Shown here piece by piece: positions 28,997-37,087 of a DNA stretch of 64,000 nt. Position 1 is the first letter of the stretch. Each line of letters starts with the position of its first letter. The DNA lies in assembly GCA_902539825.1 (NCBI GenBank), contig CACBMH010000001.1:930-64929 (forward strand), in the 5' to 3' direction. Below the pieces are notes generated by a model. It saw nothing but the letters and a program-made list of their open reading frames with translations, did no database searches and had not been told where the DNA came from. The translations under genes and the position numbers were made by a program. This DNA is from an uncultured Alphaproteobacteria bacterium. GTDB taxonomy: Bacteria > Pseudomonadota > Alphaproteobacteria > HIMB59 > GCA-002718135.

Positions 28997-29791
28997 ATGG
29001 AAATAAATAAAATTACGAATTTATTGAATCTGGAGCATGTTAAGTTTTTAATATCTATCTTTAAAGAAAATAATATTGAAATTCGATTAGTAGGAGGTTG
29101 TATACGAGATGCTCTTCTTGAAAGAGAAATCAAAGATATTGATACAGCGACAACTTTGGAGCCTGAAGATGTTTTGTCATTACTAAAAGAGAACAATATT
29201 GAGTATGATGATTTTGCTATTCAATATGGATCTATAATTGCTTATCCTCATAATCGAAAAATACAAATTACAACTTTACGTGAAGATGTTAATCAAATGG
29301 GAAGACATACAAATGTAATTTACACCAACAGCTGGAAAAAAGATTCAGCCAGAAGAGATTTTACTTTCAATGCTTTATATGTGGGAAACAATAATAAACT
29401 CCATGATTATTACAATGGCCAATCAGATTTAAATGAAAGTAAAATTTGTTTTATTGGTGAAATAGAGGATAGAATAAAAGAAGATTACTTAAGAATCTAT
29501 CGATACTTTAGGTTTAGAGGTTTATTTAATTTACCTAAAACATCTTTAAGTGATCAAAAGATTGTAGAAAAATATATTCACGAATCTTTGGCAGTGTTGA
29601 CCAACGATGTAATAAGACAAGAAATATTAAAAATGTTTAATATGTCTTTTCCATTAAATTGTTTTTACATATCTCATCAAACGTTACAAAAATTCAAATG
29701 GGTTGAAATAGTGCAAGAGCATTTTATACGAACAAAATACGACCTTGGATTAAATAAATGTCTGAATAAGATTGATAATTTAATAAATTAG
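28997..29791 (+). CDS. Class II tRNA nucleotidyltransferase / poly(A) polymerase family protein, short form (264 aa)
   Basis: Motif A RLVGGCIRDALL, motif B RRDFTFNA, motif D EDRIKEDYLRIYRYFRF. It ends soon after the neck region. Confidence 0.8.
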   Translation: MEINKITNLLNLEHVKFLISIFKENNIEIRLVGGCIRDALLEREIKDIDTATTLEPEDVLSLLKENNIEYDDFAIQYGSIIAYPHNRKIQITTLREDVNQMGRHTNVIYTNSWKKDSARRDFTFNALYVGNNNKLHDYYNGQSDLNESKICFIGEIEDRIKEDYLRIYRYFRFRGLFNLPKTSLSDQKIVEKYIHESLAVLTNDVIRQEILKMFNMSFPLNCFYISHQTLQKFKWVEIVQEHFIRTKYDLGLNKCLNKIDNLIN

Positions 29792-30201
29792 TTTTTTAGT
29801 TTACAATTTTCGCACAAACCAAATATTTCTAAATTATGTTTTTTATAATTGAAGTTATTTTTTTCTGCTTGTTTTGAAAAATAAGAAAATAAATTATTTC
29901 CAGTTAGCTCAGTAACACTATCACAGTTTTCACATATCAAAAAAGATGTAGAAGTTTTTGCATTACATCCTTCATGTTTACAAGCAACGTAAGAATTTCT
30001 ACTTTCTATTTTGTGAACTTTTCCAATTTCAATCAATTTATCGAGTGCCCTGTAAACTTGCAGAGGAGATTTTATTCCCATTTTTTGTATATCATAAAGA
30101 ATTGTGTACGCCTTCATCGGTTCAGAAGAGTTTTCTAAAACTCCAAGAACTGTTTTTTGATTCTTAGTTAAATTATCCGATGCCAATCCCATATATCTCA
30201 A
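29788..30201 (-). CDS. zur: Zinc uptake regulator (Fur family)
   Basis: 137 aa with a winged-helix N-terminus and C-terminal Cys pairs (CKHEGC ... CENC ... CENC). It is the last gene of the znuC-znuB-zur operon. Confidence 0.8.
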   Translation of the reverse strand: MRYMGLASDNLTKNQKTVLGVLENSSEPMKAYTILYDIQKMGIKSPLQVYRALDKLIEIGKVHKIESRNSYVACKHEGCNAKTSTSFLICENCDSVTELTGNNLFSYFSKQAEKNNFNYKKHNLEIFGLCENCKLKN

Positions 30202-30215
30202 TTACCAAATTGTTT

Positions 30216-31019
30216 TCATTTTTGCAACTTACCTCTCAACTCTAGTGGAATAAGAGAAATGATAAATAATATTATCGCTATAACAATAATTGATGGTCCC
30301 GAAGAGGTATTCAATTCCAAAGAAGTAAATAAGCCAATTGTAACAGATAAAATACCAATTAATATGGCTACAAATACCATTTGTTTTGGATTGTGAGTTA
30401 TATTTCTTGATGCCGCTGCCGGTATTATTAGTAATCCTGTAATTAAAAGAGTACCAATCATTTTTATAGATAATGCAATAACTCCAGCAAGTAGCAGGGT
30501 AAAGATCATATTATATATGTTCGGTTTCATTCCTTCTGCTAAAGCTAGATCATAATTAACTGTAGCTGAAAATAATGATTTCCAAATAAAATATAAAATT
30601 CCTAAAATTACAGAACCACCAATCCATACTAGAGCAATGTCTTCTACAGTTACTGATAAAATATCTCCAAATAGTAATCCCATAATATCAAAACGAATAC
30701 TCGATAAAAAACCCATTAAAACCAAACCAATCGCAAGAGTAGAGTGAGCTAATAATCCAAGTAATGAGTCCCCGGCTAATCTAGTCCTCTTTTGAAGATT
30801 GAGAAGAAGTAGAGCAATGACTGCCGATATTATAAACACAGAAAAGGCAATATTTAAACTGAAGGCATAGGCTAAAGTTACTCCTAGTAAGGCAGAGTGT
30901 GCTAAGGTATCACCAAAATAAGATAATCGTCTCCAAATTACTAAACAACCTAGTGGCCCTGTAATTATTGCAATACCGATACCAGTAACTAGTGCTCTTG
31001 TAAAAAAATCATCAAACAT
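30216..31019 (-). CDS. znuB: Zinc ABC transporter permease
   Basis: 267 aa with the ZnuB-type start FFTRALVTGIGIAIITGPLGCLVIWRRLSYFGDTLAHSAL. Confidence 0.9.
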   Translation of the reverse strand: MFDDFFTRALVTGIGIAIITGPLGCLVIWRRLSYFGDTLAHSALLGVTLAYAFSLNIAFSVFIISAVIALLLLNLQKRTRLAGDSLLGLLAHSTLAIGLVLMGFLSSIRFDIMGLLFGDILSVTVEDIALVWIGGSVILGILYFIWKSLFSATVNYDLALAEGMKPNIYNMIFTLLLAGVIALSIKMIGTLLITGLLIIPAAASRNITHNPKQMVFVAILIGILSVTIGLFTSLELNTSSGPSIIVIAIILFIISLIPLELRGKLQK

Positions 31020-31762
31020 TAACTAGACACACTTCCGTCAGAATTATGTGTGTGATCATGATCGTGCTGATAATATGTCAACGTTTTTGATCTATGTTCA
31101 CCAAATAATTCTATATAGGCTTTATCTTTTATAACTGTACTTGGTTTTCCTGAACAACAGATATGCCCATTTAAACAAACTACATGATCTGTAGCAGACA
31201 TAACAAAATGCAAGTCATGGGAGACTAATAAAATTCCACAATTTAGGTTTGCAGAAATATTTTTGATAATATTATAAAGATCAATTTCCCCATTAAAATC
31301 AACTCCTTGAACGGGTTCATCTAAGACTAGTAATTCTGGTTTTTTTGCGATAGCTCTTGCTAGAAGAACACGTTGAAATTCTCCACCAGATAGACCATGA
31401 ATTTGTTCCTTGAAAAGTTTTTCTACACCAGTTTGATTTAAAGATTCACTAACTTCATTATCATTGAGATTATTGGTTAATCGCATGAAATCTACAACTC
31501 GTAATGGCATTGTCCAATCGATATTAATTTTCTGAGGAACATATGCGATTTTATCTGTATACCTTTTCATTGAACCTTCATCAGGTTCAAGAATACTTAG
31601 CACCATTTTAGCTGTTGTTGTCTTTCCAGAACCATTAGGTCCTATTAGCGTAACTATTTGACCACGCCTTACTTCAAGAGATACACCTCTTATCAACCAT
31701 TTTGGAGACTTATAAACACCTGCGTTTTCCAAATTTACTAATAAATTATTTTTACTACTCAT
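31019..31762 (-). CDS. znuC: Zinc ABC transporter ATP-binding protein
   Basis: 247 aa with Walker A GPNGSGKTT, signature LSGGEFQR and a His-rich C-terminal tail YYQHDHDHTHNSDG. Confidence 0.9.
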   Translation of the reverse strand: MSSKNNLLVNLENAGVYKSPKWLIRGVSLEVRRGQIVTLIGPNGSGKTTTAKMVLSILEPDEGSMKRYTDKIAYVPQKINIDWTMPLRVVDFMRLTNNLNDNEVSESLNQTGVEKLFKEQIHGLSGGEFQRVLLARAIAKKPELLVLDEPVQGVDFNGEIDLYNIIKNISANLNCGILLVSHDLHFVMSATDHVVCLNGHICCSGKPSTVIKDKAYIELFGEHRSKTLTYYQHDHDHTHNSDGSVSS

Positions 31763-36038: not shown

Positions 36039-36105
36039 TAAAATTTTAAAAAAAATTAAATTATAATTATTTATTTCTGAATTTTATTTAATTTAGAATG
36101 TATTA

Positions 36106-36189
36106 TTAACAGCAATCTCCACCTTCACAAGTGCAACAACAGCTGCAGCTGCAACCACACTTTGGTGGGTTTGGATTTTGATTTTTCAT
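36106..36189 (-). CDS. Candidate 27-aa cysteine-rich (metallothionein-like) peptide, unannotated micro-ORF
   Basis: ATG at 36189 with AGGTG 5 nt upstream. Translation MKNQNPNPPKCGCSCSCCCTCEGGDCC, stop TAA at 36106-36108. 9 of 27 residues are Cys. It sits in a local G+C island (31/60 G+C over 36111-36170 by my count) inside an otherwise almost pure A+T spacer. Confidence 0.55.
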   Translation of the reverse strand: MKNQNPNPPKCGCSCSCCCTCEGGDCC

Positions 36190-36229
36190 AATCACACCTA
36201 TATATTTTTTATAATAATTTAAAATACAA

Positions 36230-37087
36230 ATGAGAAAAGCATTAGAAATTAAACAATGTATGAAGACTTTCGAGGGTGACGGGATACCTGTAACGAGAGC
36301 TTTCCCTGTCCCCGGAATGAGAGAAAACGATCCATTTCTTCTTTTTGATCATTTCGGCCCAATTAATTATGAGCCAGGAGGTGCAACTGGTGTACCAGCA
36401 CATCCTCATTGTGGATTTGAGGCAATTACTTATATGCTTGGTGGTGAAGTAGAGCATAGAGACTCATTTGGAGGACAAGCAGAAATTGAAACTGGTGATG
36501 TACAATGGATGACAACCGGATCAGGTTTAATCCACTCTGAATTAGTAACAGAAAAATTTAAGAAGAGTGGTGGTATCATGCAAGGATTACAAATTTGGGT
36601 AAATCTTCCACAAAAAAATAAAAAAGTGAAACCTTGGTACCAACATATTAAAAGAAACACTATTCCAACAGTATCTGAAAATGCAAATATAGTAATTAAA
36701 GTTCTTGTGGGTGAAATAAATGGAACCAAATCCAAAGTTCAAACATATTCACCTGTATCAATATTTGATATTCAATTTTCAAAACCAGATATGACAAAGT
36801 TTAATGTTGATAAAGAACAAAATCTTATGATCTATATTATTGATGGTCAGTTACAGTTTAATGAGCAAGATAAAATTGCTAATAAAGGTGATATGATTTA
36901 TTTTGATCAATCTAGTGATGAGATTCAACTTACATCAATATCAGAAAAAGGATCCTACCTAGTTTTAGCCGGAAAGCCGCTTAAAGAACCTGTAGCACGT
37001 TATGGTCCTTTTGTGGCAAATTCTGAAGGAGAAATCAAGCAAGCAATGATGGACTATCAAGAAGGAAAAATGGGAAGCTTAGCTTAA
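36230..37087 (+). CDS. Pirin-family bicupin protein
   Basis: 285 aa with PAHPHCGFEAITYMLGGEVEHRDS (pirin metal-ligand motif), QWMTTGSGLIHSE and GPFV. The start could be the internal MKTFEGDG. Confidence 0.88.
   Translation: MRKALEIKQCMKTFEGDGIPVTRAFPVPGMRENDPFLLFDHFGPINYEPGGATGVPAHPHCGFEAITYMLGGEVEHRDSFGGQAEIETGDVQWMTTGSGLIHSELVTEKFKKSGGIMQGLQIWVNLPQKNKKVKPWYQHIKRNTIPTVSENANIVIKVLVGEINGTKSKVQTYSPVSIFDIQFSKPDMTKFNVDKEQNLMIYIIDGQLQFNEQDKIANKGDMIYFDQSSDEIQLTSISEKGSYLVLAGKPLKEPVARYGPFVANSEGEIKQAMMDYQEGKMGSLA

What the first reader, a model, noticed from the sequence alone, without database searches (positions are those of the whole stretch)
29788..37087. Contiguous 7.3-kb metal-handling neighbourhood with His/Asp or Cys-rich tracts in most of its products
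Reading across the region gives: Zur; ZnuB; ZnuC (tail YYQHDHDHTH); Zur box; ZnuA ((DHD)x10 and HDHHDHHGHAH); COG0523 (GCICC, DHDHEHDDD); WD40 propeller; 84-aa protein (CHEPDC, terminal NHTH); DUF1636 (five clustered Cys); the 27-aa 9-Cys peptide; and pirin, a metal-dependent bicupin. Uptake, regulation, a putative chaperone, possible buffering (the Cys peptide) and candidate clients are thus all co-located. In a genome with few regulators and almost no spare DNA, this suggests one integrated trace-metal economy module rather than chance adjacency. The known parts (znuABC-zur) are textbook. The linkage to the other five genes is the undescribed part.
Basis: inference. Interest (0 to 1): 0.6.

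Follow-up and report, generated by a model that had tools for sequence, protein, structure and literature searches.

The report
SAR11 zinc-uptake and chaperone gene block
Nine of these ten metal-related genes form one zinc-starvation block that moves around SAR11 genomes as a unit; its core (zinc importer, chaperone GTPase, propeller protein) was already published, a small two-cysteine partner and a 27-residue cysteine peptide seem undescribed, and pirin is only a neighbour.

Summary

The reading "one integrated module, five undescribed links" is only partly right.

1. zur-znuBC / znuA-COG0523-WD40 is real and old, but already published (Haas 2009; Barnett 2012).
2. The 84-aa protein is a true third partner. 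Distant relatives (21-35% identity) lie directly behind COG0523 and/or WD40 in 18 of 19 other alphaproteobacterial loci, and beside ZIP/CDF/Zur genes in other bacteria. It has no Pfam family and no PDB fold match.
3. COG0523-WD40-p84(-DUF1636) is a present-or-absent cassette. Five same-genus genomes have znuA-Cys peptide-pirin directly adjacent. DUF1636 is optional.
4. The 27-aa peptide is a real gene. Seven of its nine Cys codons vary only TGC/TGT across loci.
5. In genome G015 the whole zur-to-Cys-peptide block sits about 120 kb away, and cca-pirin is an empty site. Pirin is therefore backbone, not module.
6. There is only one credible Zur box. The cassette is probably expressed by read-through of a conserved hairpin.

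The scan has already reported the trio and the Cys peptide in other SAR11 genomes.

Verdict: new variant of a known kind, moderate interest.

The parts
29788..30201 (-). zur, a Fur-family zinc uptake repressor and last gene of the znuC-znuB-zur transcript
   Evidence: PF01475 hit. The best NCBIfam model is Zur (78 bits, below its cut-off). It is the only Fur-family tblastn hit in the assembly. It is syntenic with znuBC in all loci.
30216..31019 (-). znuB, the permease
   Evidence: ABC-3 family, E 6e-66. NCBIfam ZnuB 237 bits.
31019..31762 (-). znuC, the ATPase, with a His-rich tail YYQHDHDHTH
   Evidence: NCBIfam ZnuC 272 bits. Two allele classes occur within the genus: about 70% and 91-100% identity to the window.
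31784..31803 (.). Zur box in the 77-nt divergent znuC/znuA spacer
   Evidence: Near-perfect palindrome and the only good match in the genome. It is conserved in related loci. Pelagibacteraceae loci carry two tandem copies. It matches the alphaproteobacterial Zur boxes listed in the PMC2770081 supplement.
31840..33267 (+). znuA, the periplasmic zinc-binding protein, with a (DHD)x10 tract, a roughly 135-aa insertion and HDHHDHHGHAH
   Evidence: PF01297, E 6e-63. The insertion (about residues 160-295) is absent from 40 of 48 loci of the window's clade.
33282..33314 (+). Conserved hairpin between znuA and COG0523. Probably a partial terminator or an mRNA-stabilising element.
   Evidence: 15-bp stem, -19 kcal/mol, z = -4.0. 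The stem is conserved and the loop varies across the clade. Pelagibacteraceae lack it and have a spacer of only 4-31 nt.
33339..34310 (+). COG0523 G3E GTPase, the presumed zinc metallochaperone, with GCICC, the linker DHDHEHDDD and RSKG
   Evidence: cobW plus CobW_C domains. The closest solved structure is E. coli YjiA, E 2e-59. It is 85% identical across families and 72% identical in a distant alphaproteobacterium. Its context matches Haas 'subgroup 5'.
34307..35344 (+). Cytoplasmic eight-bladed WD40 propeller. Its start overlaps the COG0523 stop (ATGA).
   Evidence: WD40 hits in Pfam. The AlphaFold2 model has pLDDT 89.8 and pTM 0.88. The best folds are the eight-bladed ODA16, Tako8 and Fbw7, TM 0.73-0.79. 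It always co-occurs with COG0523 and p84 in Pelagibacterales.
35355..35609 (+). p84, a small two-cysteine protein (CxxxxC in a beta-hairpin loop) and a COG0523-associated partner with no family name
   Evidence: No Pfam or NCBIfam hit. 820 representative proteins (one per 50%-identity cluster) match at E <= 1e-3; at least the top hit, a giant repeat adhesin, is spurious. The AlphaFold2 model has pLDDT 79 and no PDB fold match. 18 of 19 distant loci have COG0523 and/or WD40 directly upstream. The orders ZIP-p84-COG0523-WD40 also occur. One WD40-p84 fusion was seen, P0136.
35631..36038 (+). DUF1636, a thioredoxin-like [2Fe-2S] ferredoxin-type protein. It is an optional fourth gene of the cassette.
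   Evidence: PF07845, 91.5 bits. Present in 19 of 48 clade loci and 5 of 12 cassette-bearing genomes. In other Alphaproteobacteria, 13 of 29 DUF1636 loci have a CobW-type COG0523 next door. The fold assignment is from PMC4520260.
36106..36189 (-). 27-codon gene for a 9-Cys peptide (MKNQNPNPPKCGCSCSCCCTCEGGDCC), convergent with the znuA operon. A candidate mini-metallothionein.
   Evidence: Found in 76 loci as 21 DNA variants. Seven of nine Cys codons show TGC/TGT changes, and Cys is kept in all but one variant. It stays next to znuA when the cassette is absent. It moves with the block to the phoB-murJ site. It is not in the protein collection. It has no Pfam or PDB match.
36230..37087 (+). Pirin (bicupin). 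A backbone neighbour, not part of the block.
   Evidence: Pirin plus Pirin_C domains. In G015 pirin lies 89 nt from cca with no znu block or Cys peptide between them. Close pirin homologs occur in genera where this search found no znuA (G059-G061). There is no Zur box upstream.

Best explanation
The interval joins two things.

**1. A relocatable zinc-starvation block, 29788-36189.** It contains zur-znuB-znuC, read leftward, and znuA-COG0523-WD40-p84-DUF1636, read rightward, from one divergent promoter region that carries a single Zur operator. A small convergent gene for a 27-residue, 9-Cys peptide closes the block.

Proposed working (inferred):
- When zinc is scarce, Zur leaves the operator.
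- ZnuABC imports zinc, with an unusually His/Asp-rich ZnuA.
- Transcripts that read through the conserved hairpin after znuA also yield the COG0523 GTPase and its partners.
- The GTPase holds Zn at its CxCC motif and hands it to client apo-enzymes in a GTP-dependent step.
- The eight-bladed WD40 propeller and the small two-Cys protein p84 act as fixed partner subunits, as adaptor and as co-ligand or Zn carrier.
- DUF1636 is an optional redox or metal accessory.
- The Cys peptide most likely acts as a tiny thiolate buffer for Zn, or for Cd or Cu.

**2. Pirin (36230-37087).** It belongs to the conserved cca ... pirin-trmL-petABC backbone and is adjacent only by position.

**Shown:** gene content, motifs, the operator, the co-occurrence and co-movement of the parts, and purifying selection on the peptide.

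**Inferred:** zinc specificity, physical complex formation, read-through of the hairpin, and metal binding by p84 and by the peptide.
For: Domains and motifs.

Operator: there is one credible Zur box, placed in the divergent spacer. The same layout occurs in related loci. In Pelagibacteraceae, tandem boxes are followed by a znuA-COG0523 spacer of only 4-31 nt, which means one operon.

Core synteny:
- The 7-gene core is present in all long-enough loci among 80 Pelagibacterales loci, with different flanks.
- zur-znuC-znuB-znuA-COG0523-WD40-p84 is collinear in distant genome G358, and znuCBA-COG0523-WD40-p84 in G284.
- Published 'znuCBA-COG0523-5-WD40' operons with Zur boxes exist.

p84 as partner:
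- 18 of 19 distant alphaproteobacterial p84 loci have COG0523 and/or WD40 directly upstream on the same strand.
- The order ZIP-p84-COG0523-WD40 occurs beside Zur, ZnuBC, CDF and TonB-receptor genes in other bacteria.
- One WD40-p84 fusion protein was seen.
- In the window, the COG0523 stop and WD40 start overlap, and the following gaps are 10 and 21 nt.

Unit behaviour: in G015 the block zur ... Cys peptide lies between phoU-phoB and murJ, while cca-pirin is an empty site on the same contig.

Cassette presence or absence.

Peptide under selection.

Precedent for a metallothionein tied to Zur in an oligotrophic marine bacterium: PMC3323870.
Against: - No expression or binding data exist.
- The hairpin after znuA is strong (-19 kcal/mol), so in this clade it could isolate the cassette from the Zur promoter. 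No separate promoter or operator was recognisable, and the promoter scan found fewer sites than the shuffles did.
- Zur scores below NCBIfam's Zur cut-off.
- Haas's 'subgroup 5' also co-localises with HoxN-type Ni/Co transporters. DUF1636 is otherwise a cobalamin-cluster gene. Zinc specificity of the chaperone is therefore not proven.
- The Cys peptide has no homology to any metallothionein family. It was found only in the window's genus and in a few other SAR11 loci close to it.
- Most synteny evidence comes from closely related single-cell genomes, which are not independent samples.
Confidence: 0.7

Rival explanations
1. One reading: all ten genes, pirin included, form one co-regulated trace-metal module, with pirin and DUF1636 as clients of the chaperone.
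For: - All ten genes are adjacent in most genomes of the genus.
- Pirin is a metal-dependent bicupin.
- The Cys peptide and pirin are divergent, with only about 40 nt between them.
- In G062 a pirin gene lies about 2 kb from zur, on the other side of the block.
Against: - G015 keeps cca-pirin-trmL-petABC with the block gone to another site.
- Loci L072, L083 and L084 have the block and the Cys peptide but no pirin.
- The more distant loci and genomes that carry the 7-gene core or the trio have no pirin gene near it.
- There is no Zur box near pirin.
- The wider panC ... petABC order is just as conserved as the block, so adjacency within the genus carries no information.
Confidence: 0.08
2. Beyond znuABC-zur the neighbourhood is chance adjacency, fixed by the generally rigid gene order of streamlined SAR11 genomes.
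For: Gene order over the whole 13 kb from panC to petC is conserved in the genus. The cassette and DUF1636 can be lost without the rest changing.
Against: - COG0523-WD40-p84 stay together and next to znuA in at least four different flanking contexts within the order.
- They also stay together in distant Alphaproteobacteria and other bacteria, with the gene order rearranged.
- The three always co-occur in presence and absence.
Confidence: 0.05
3. The COG0523-WD40-p84-DUF1636 cassette serves a metal other than zinc (cobalt, nickel or iron), or Fe-S/redox chemistry, and merely shares a site with znuA.
For: - DUF1636 normally neighbours CobW-type COG0523 in cobalamin clusters.
- DUF1636 has a [2Fe-2S]-ferredoxin-like fold.
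- Haas's subgroup 5 also co-localises with HoxN Ni/Co transporters.
- In this clade the hairpin may uncouple the cassette from Zur.
Against: - In Pelagibacteraceae and in G358/G284 the trio is in the znuA operon behind Zur boxes or zur.
- Distant p84-COG0523-WD40 sets sit with ZIP, CDF, ZnuBC and Fur-family genes.
- DUF1636 is the dispensable member.
Confidence: 0.12
4. The 27-residue Cys peptide is not a metal buffer but something else, such as a precursor of a modified peptide, a redox-active peptide or a regulatory micro-protein.
For: It has no homology to any metallothionein family or structure. It has no recognisable metal-responsive operator. The N-terminal half (MKNQNPNPPK) could be a leader.
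Against: - No modification enzyme, protease or exporter gene accompanies it at either of its two genomic sites.
- It has no signal peptide and no aromatic or hydrophobic residues.
- It is one-third Cys, arranged as CxC, CCC and CC, as in metal-thiolate peptides.
- It co-moves with a zinc block.
Confidence: 0.2

Closest known systems
Zur-regulated 'znuCBA-COG0523-5-WD40(-sapB)' operons of Bradyrhizobium, Nitrobacter and Rhodopseudomonas (Haas et al. 2009, PMC2770081), and the COG0523/WD-40/znuABC/zur clusters of marine Prochlorococcus and Synechococcus (Barnett et al. 2012, PMC3323870)
   Same: A Zur box, znuABC, a COG0523 GTPase with a CxCC motif, and a WD40 gene immediately downstream. These are read as a low-zinc response, and the role of the WD40 protein is unknown.
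   Different: - Here znuA is divergent from znuCB-zur.
- A hairpin separates znuA from COG0523.
- A conserved small two-Cys protein follows WD40. Neither paper mentions it in the parts I searched.
- An optional DUF1636 and a convergent 9-Cys micro-gene are added.
- The window's COG0523 (323 aa) does not have room for the roughly 150-aa insert described for the cyanobacterial branch (inference from length).
Characterised COG0523 zinc metallochaperones: eukaryotic ZNG1 (client METAP1), A. baumannii ZigA and MigC, B. subtilis ZagA, E. coli YjiA and YeiR (review PMC11672702; PMC13001444)
   Same: G3E GTPase with CxCC, a His/Asp-rich linker and the RxKG motif in the C-terminal domain. Expression is tied to Zur or low zinc. 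YjiA is the nearest solved structure (E 2e-59).
   Different: - None of these is described with a WD40 or a small Cys-protein partner. The terms 'WD40' and 'propeller' do not occur in the held text of the 2024 review.
- The N-terminal client-binding motif of ZNG1 is absent.
- The client here is unknown.
DUF1636 next to cobW in cobalamin biosynthesis clusters of Alphaproteobacteria
   Same: A DUF1636 protein encoded beside a COG0523 GTPase: 13 of 29 sampled loci. The Cys pattern is that of a thioredoxin-like [2Fe-2S] ferredoxin.
   Different: - The order is reversed. Here DUF1636 is downstream of the GTPase.
- The GTPase is the Zn-linked type, not CobW (about 30% identity).
- There are no cobalamin genes nearby.
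- The gene is dispensable within the genus.
Bacterial metallothioneins (SmtA/BmtA) and short fungal Cu-thioneins
   Same: Small, about one-third Cys, with CxC and CC clusters and no aromatic residues. BmtA of Synechococcus WH8102 has Zur boxes, which is a precedent for a thionein in the low-zinc response. The comparison with the roughly 26-residue Neurospora Cu-thionein rests on my own recall.
   Different: - No sequence homology.
- No His ligands or zinc-finger fold as in BmtA.
- Half the length of BmtA.
- No operator recognised upstream.
- Found only in the window's genus and a few other SAR11 loci close to it.

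Membership tests
Zur-controlled ZnuABC zinc importer | Cluster A-I substrate-binding protein, ABC-3 permease and ABC ATPase of the Znu type | tested here: met
   PF01297, PF00950 and PF00005 all hit. The best NCBIfam models are ZnuA, ZnuB and ZnuC, although each scores below its equivalog cut-off.
Zur-controlled ZnuABC zinc importer | Fur-family repressor of the Zur type encoded in the locus | tested here: inconclusive
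   PF01475 is met. Zur is the best NCBIfam model, but at 78 bits against a cut-off of 167. The Cys-rich C-terminus (CENC ... CENC) is visible in the sequence.
Zur-controlled ZnuABC zinc importer | Zur-box palindrome over the znu promoters | tested here: met
   TGTAATATTATAACATTACA at 31784-31803. It is unique in the genome, conserved in relatives, and matches the published alphaproteobacterial boxes.
Zur-controlled ZnuABC zinc importer | Zinc-dependent repression | not testable with these tools
COG0523 (G3E GTPase metallochaperones), Zn-linked 'subgroup 5' of Haas 2009 | cobW G-domain plus CobW_C, Walker A, CxCC metal motif and RxKG in the C-terminal domain | tested here: met
   PF02492 198 bits and PF07683 92 bits. 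GAGKTT, GCICC and RSKG are read directly from the sequence. YjiA is the nearest structure.
COG0523 (G3E GTPase metallochaperones), Zn-linked 'subgroup 5' of Haas 2009 | Gene context: WD40 gene and znuABC adjacent, with a Zur site upstream | tested here: met
   compared.
COG0523 (G3E GTPase metallochaperones), Zn-linked 'subgroup 5' of Haas 2009 | Phylogenetic placement inside subgroup 5 | not tested
   No tree was built with the reference subgroup members.
COG0523 (G3E GTPase metallochaperones), Zn-linked 'subgroup 5' of Haas 2009 | GTP-dependent Zn transfer to a client | not testable with these tools
   This needs biochemistry.
DUF1636 (PF07845) | Profile match above the gathering score, and the conserved Cys set | tested here: met
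   91.5 bits against 31.6. C13, C16, C53, C57 and C61 are present.
Metallothionein (functional class) | Small, at least 30% Cys in CxC/CC clusters, no aromatic residues | tested here: met
   9 Cys in 27 residues, with no F, W, Y or H. The Cys are kept under synonymous codon change.
Metallothionein (functional class) | Homology to a described metallothionein family | tested here: not met
   No Pfam hit at E <= 10 and no PDB hit at E <= 10.
Metallothionein (functional class) | Metal-thiolate cluster formation and metal-responsive expression | not testable with these tools
   This needs peptide chemistry and transcript data.
Membership of pirin in the znu block | Co-movement, co-occurrence or a shared operator with the block | tested here: not met
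   G015 has an empty cca-pirin site with the block elsewhere. L072 and L083 lack pirin. There is no Zur box.

The most novel reading that the evidence does not exclude
COG0523, the eight-bladed WD40 propeller and the unnamed two-Cys protein p84 form a dedicated three-subunit zinc-insertion machine. p84's CxxxxC hairpin would complete the Zn site of the GTPase's CxCC motif or shuttle the ion. In this SAR11 clade a 27-residue thionein encoded at the end of the block would supply or buffer the metal. This would be a compact, horizontally movable zinc-economy cassette that helps the ocean's most abundant heterotroph live at picomolar zinc.
Probability: 0.2. Interest if true: 0.75.

Novelty: new variant of a known kind. 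Interest (0 to 1): 0.45.

Why it matters
- COG0523 proteins are thought to deliver metal to enzymes when metal is scarce, but very few partners or clients are known. The WD40 neighbour has been unexplained since 2009.
- A conserved small two-Cys protein sits next to COG0523, with or without WD40. This names a concrete third component to test.
- SAR11 dominates surface oceans where zinc is picomolar. A cassette that is present in some species of a genus and absent in others is a candidate marker of adaptation to zinc scarcity, and it can be tracked in metagenomes.
- The 27-codon Cys-peptide gene is missed by gene callers. It may be one of the smallest bacterial metal-binding peptides.
- The result that pirin is not part of the block stops a false client assignment from spreading.

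Tried and rejected
- The search for a second Zur box found only 3-mismatch matches, which occur 162 times in the genome. That is chance level.
- The promoter/terminator consensus scan was uninformative in this AT-rich DNA: 31 sites against 38 expected.
- The fold search for p84 gave no significant PDB match. The best was E 0.056, TM 0.29.
- The top hit of the p84 profile search, P0113, is a 6102-aa repeat adhesin. It is a spurious sum of weak repeats and was rejected.
An exact look-up showed the peptide is not in the protein collection.
- The WD40 protein is not an AztD-type periplasmic zinc chaperone. It has no signal peptide and matched no NCBIfam model at all.
- The p84-like gene in L123/L124 lacks both Cys and is only loosely near a COG0523. 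It was not counted as support.
- Literature searches for SAR11 with COG0523, ZNG1 with WD40, and COG0523 with DUF1636 returned nothing.
- I looked for mobile-element signatures or direct repeats at the block boundaries by eye and saw none.

Full report
**Observation**

| Element | Coordinates | Strand |
|---|---|---|
| zur | 29788-30201 | - |
| znuB | 30216-31019 | - |
| znuC | 31019-31762 | - |
| Zur-type palindrome | 31784-31803 | . |
| znuA | 31840-33267 | + |
| COG0523 GTPase | 33339-34310 | + |
| WD40 protein | 34307-35344 | + |
| 84-aa protein (p84) | 35355-35609 | + |
| DUF1636 protein | 35631-36038 | + |
| 27-codon 9-Cys ORF | 36106-36189 | - |
| pirin | 36230-37087 | + |

- The His/Asp and Cys tracts are as described.
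- The genome is a 0.96-Mb, 29% G+C, 61%-complete SAR11-type assembly.
- All ten genes are single copy in it.
- Only one sequence in the genome matches the Zur-box core with at most 1 mismatch.

**Is it one module? Synteny in relatives**

I fetched 16 loci from the genus and the sister family and 80 loci found through p84.

- Within the genus, the whole stretch panC-pnpox-cca-zur ... pirin-trmL-petABC is collinear. Adjacency inside the genus therefore says nothing by itself.
- The informative cases are the exceptions, found with a concatenated-query search of 52 genomes at least 85% complete and in the fetched loci. There are four.

1. **The COG0523 cassette is present or absent as a unit.**
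   - Five same-genus genomes (G022, G042, G044, G049, G053) have no COG0523, WD40 or p84 anywhere.
   - In four of them (G022, G042, G044, G053) znuA is followed directly by the Cys-peptide gene and pirin. G049 shows znuA and the peptide, but no pirin match.
   - In G022, 45 nt separate the convergent stops.
   - COG0523-WD40-p84(-DUF1636) is thus a cassette whose three core genes always co-occur.
2. **DUF1636 is optional.** It is present in 5 of 12 cassette-bearing genomes and in 19 of 48 clade loci.
3. **The seven-gene core persists in more distant loci labelled Pelagibacteraceae.**
   - zur-znuB-znuC / znuA-COG0523-WD40-p84 is kept in quite different flanks, with WD40 about 56% and p84 about 62% identical to the window's.
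   - Those loci have no DUF1636, no Cys peptide and no pirin.
   - Three sister-family genomes (G027, G028, G035) carry only the trio, about 10 kb from znuA.
4. **The block relocates as a whole, without pirin.**
   - In G015, a member of the window's own genus, the complete block from zur to the Cys peptide, DUF1636 included, lies between phoU-phoB and murJ-trpS-nfu.
   - About 120 kb away on the same contig, cca is followed after 89 nt by pirin-trmL-petABC, with nothing in between.
   - Loci L083 and L084, from a more divergent clade, share the phoB ... murJ position.

The unit of inheritance is therefore [zur ... Cys peptide]. Pirin belongs to the backbone.

**Beyond SAR11**

- A profile of p84 finds 820 representative proteins (one per 50%-identity cluster) at E <= 1e-3. 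At least the top hit is spurious.
- None of those tested has a Pfam family.
- In evenly drawn samples, p84 relatives occur in few Alphaproteobacteria: 4 of 299 non-SAR11 genomes, and 16 of 400 concentrated in a few families, for example 10 of 14 in one family.
- In 18 of 19 such loci, a COG0523 gene and/or a WD40 gene lies immediately upstream on the same strand. The arrangement is either COG0523-WD40-p84 or COG0523-p84.
- G358 has zur-znuC-znuB-znuA-COG0523 (72% identical)-WD40-p84 in one line. G284 has znuCBA-COG0523-WD40-p84.
- Still more distant p84 homologs (27-29% identical) sit in ZIP-p84-COG0523-WD40 arrangements beside ZnuBC, a Fur-family gene, a CDF exporter and a TonB-dependent receptor.
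- One database protein fuses a WD40 C-terminus to p84.
- Rearranged order with retained neighbourhood is the classic signature of functional coupling.

**Regulation**

- In the Pelagibacteraceae loci, two tandem Zur boxes follow a TTGACT -35 element, and znuA is separated from COG0523 by only 4-31 nt. The trio is therefore in the Zur-controlled znuA operon there.
- In the window's clade the spacer is 73-76 nt (74 in the window) and holds a conserved hairpin. The stem is 15 bp, -19 kcal/mol, z = -4.0. The stem is conserved, the loop varies, and there is no clean U-tract.
- I read this hairpin as a partial terminator or stabiliser that sets a high ZnuA to low chaperone ratio. That is inference.
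- No second Zur box precedes COG0523, the Cys peptide or pirin.

**The parts**

- **COG0523** has Walker A, GCICC, a DHDHEHDDD linker and the RSKG arginine-finger motif described for the family (PMC13001444). E. coli YjiA is its closest solved relative. It is strikingly conserved, at 85% across families, against 55% for WD40.
- **The WD40 protein** has no signal peptide. It models with high confidence as an eight-bladed propeller, which is a generic interaction platform.
- **p84** models as helix, three strands, short helix (pLDDT 79). The two invariant Cys lie in the loop between strands 1 and 2. It has no structural relative in the PDB. Two Cys cannot make a full Zn site alone, so a shared site with a partner or a dimer is likely (inference).
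- **DUF1636** has the Cys pattern of thioredoxin-like [2Fe-2S] ferredoxins (PMC4520260). Elsewhere it is typically the neighbour of CobW-type COG0523 in cobalamin clusters: 13 of 29 sampled loci (bioRxiv 2025.12.19.695462). Here it accompanies a Zn-linked COG0523 with no cobalamin genes nearby. This suggests it is a general COG0523 accessory.
- **The Cys peptide** is a real gene.
  - It has an AGGTG Shine-Dalgarno sequence 5 nt upstream.
  - It occurs in 76 loci as 21 DNA variants. Seven of nine Cys codons toggle TGC/TGT, and Cys is retained in all but one variant.
  - It is absent from the 15-billion-protein collection.
  - It matches no metallothionein family.

**Comparison with the literature**

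- Haas et al. 2009 already reported that prokaryotic COG0523 'subgroup 5' clusters with WD40 genes and znuABC. They listed Zur-box operons 'znuCBA-COG0523-5-WD40(-sapB)'.
- Barnett et al. 2012 found the same COG0523/WD-40/znuABC/zur association in marine cyanobacteria and called the WD-40 role unclear. They also noted Zur boxes upstream of a metallothionein gene.
- The held text of the 2024 Chemical Reviews survey of metallochaperones mentions neither WD40 nor a propeller.
- I found no paper linking SAR11 with COG0523, or COG0523 with DUF1636.
- The 'undescribed linkage' therefore shrinks to four items: p84 as a conserved partner, DUF1636 in a zinc context, the Cys micro-gene, and the behaviour of the block as a movable unit.
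- Earlier reports of this scan reached similar readings of the trio and of the Cys peptide on other SAR11 genomes. My tests were run independently of them. One of them gave me the lead to the Barnett paper.

**Verdict**

- The best reading is a relocatable, Zur-headed zinc acquisition and allocation block of nine genes, with an optional cassette structure, next to an unrelated pirin gene.
- Function is inferred from family knowledge and context.

Noticed in passing
window 32317-32725 (ZnuA residues about 160-295): The roughly 135-residue insertion between the two His-rich tracts of ZnuA is a length polymorphism. Only 8 of 48 loci of the clade have it, and 7 of those 8 also carry DUF1636. This could be a linked haplotype or a functional pairing. 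The loci are related, so this is not an independent test.
   Followed up: partly
window 30216-31762 (znuB, znuC), compared with L018-L030 and L034-L080: Within one genus, znuC falls into two allele classes (about 70% and 91-100% identity to the window) and znuB likewise (about 80% and 94-98%). Flanking cca, COG0523 and pirin are mostly 93-100% identical. This suggests recombination or diversifying replacement of the transporter genes.
   Followed up: no
window 33339-35609, compared with L031-L033 and L086-L113: COG0523 is far more conserved across the order (85-86%) than its partners WD40 (55-58%) and p84 (61-68%) or ZnuA (about 55%).
   Followed up: no
L086-L113, znuC/znuA spacer: Pelagibacteraceae loci have two tandem Zur boxes (ATGTTATATTATTACA and GTTATATTATAACA) right after a TTGACT -35 hexamer. 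The window's clade has one box.
   Followed up: partly
P0136 (database protein) and L157 2267-3076: P0136 is a fusion of a WD40 C-terminus to a p84 domain. In L157, one truncated product carries both cobW and WD40 hits. These may be Rosetta-stone fusions or gene-calling artefacts.
   Followed up: no
L123 8058-8348 and L124: A p84-like 96-aa protein has lost both conserved Cys but ends in ...GDCC. It lies about 1.3 kb from a divergently oriented COG0523, with a Zn-type alcohol dehydrogenase between them.
   Followed up: no
window 33284-33312, compared with 36113-36125: The arms of the hairpin after znuA (AATTCCACCTT / AAGGTGGAATT) resemble the 3' end of the Cys-peptide ORF (..GAAGGTGGAGAT..). 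In cassette-less genomes a different hairpin overlaps the peptide's last codons. This may be a footprint of how the cassette was inserted.
   Followed up: no
window 32000-35500: G+C is 32-39% across znuA-COG0523-WD40, against 25-32% in the immediately flanking DNA (genome mean 29%). This may reflect His/Asp/Gly-rich coding or a foreign origin of the block.
   Followed up: no
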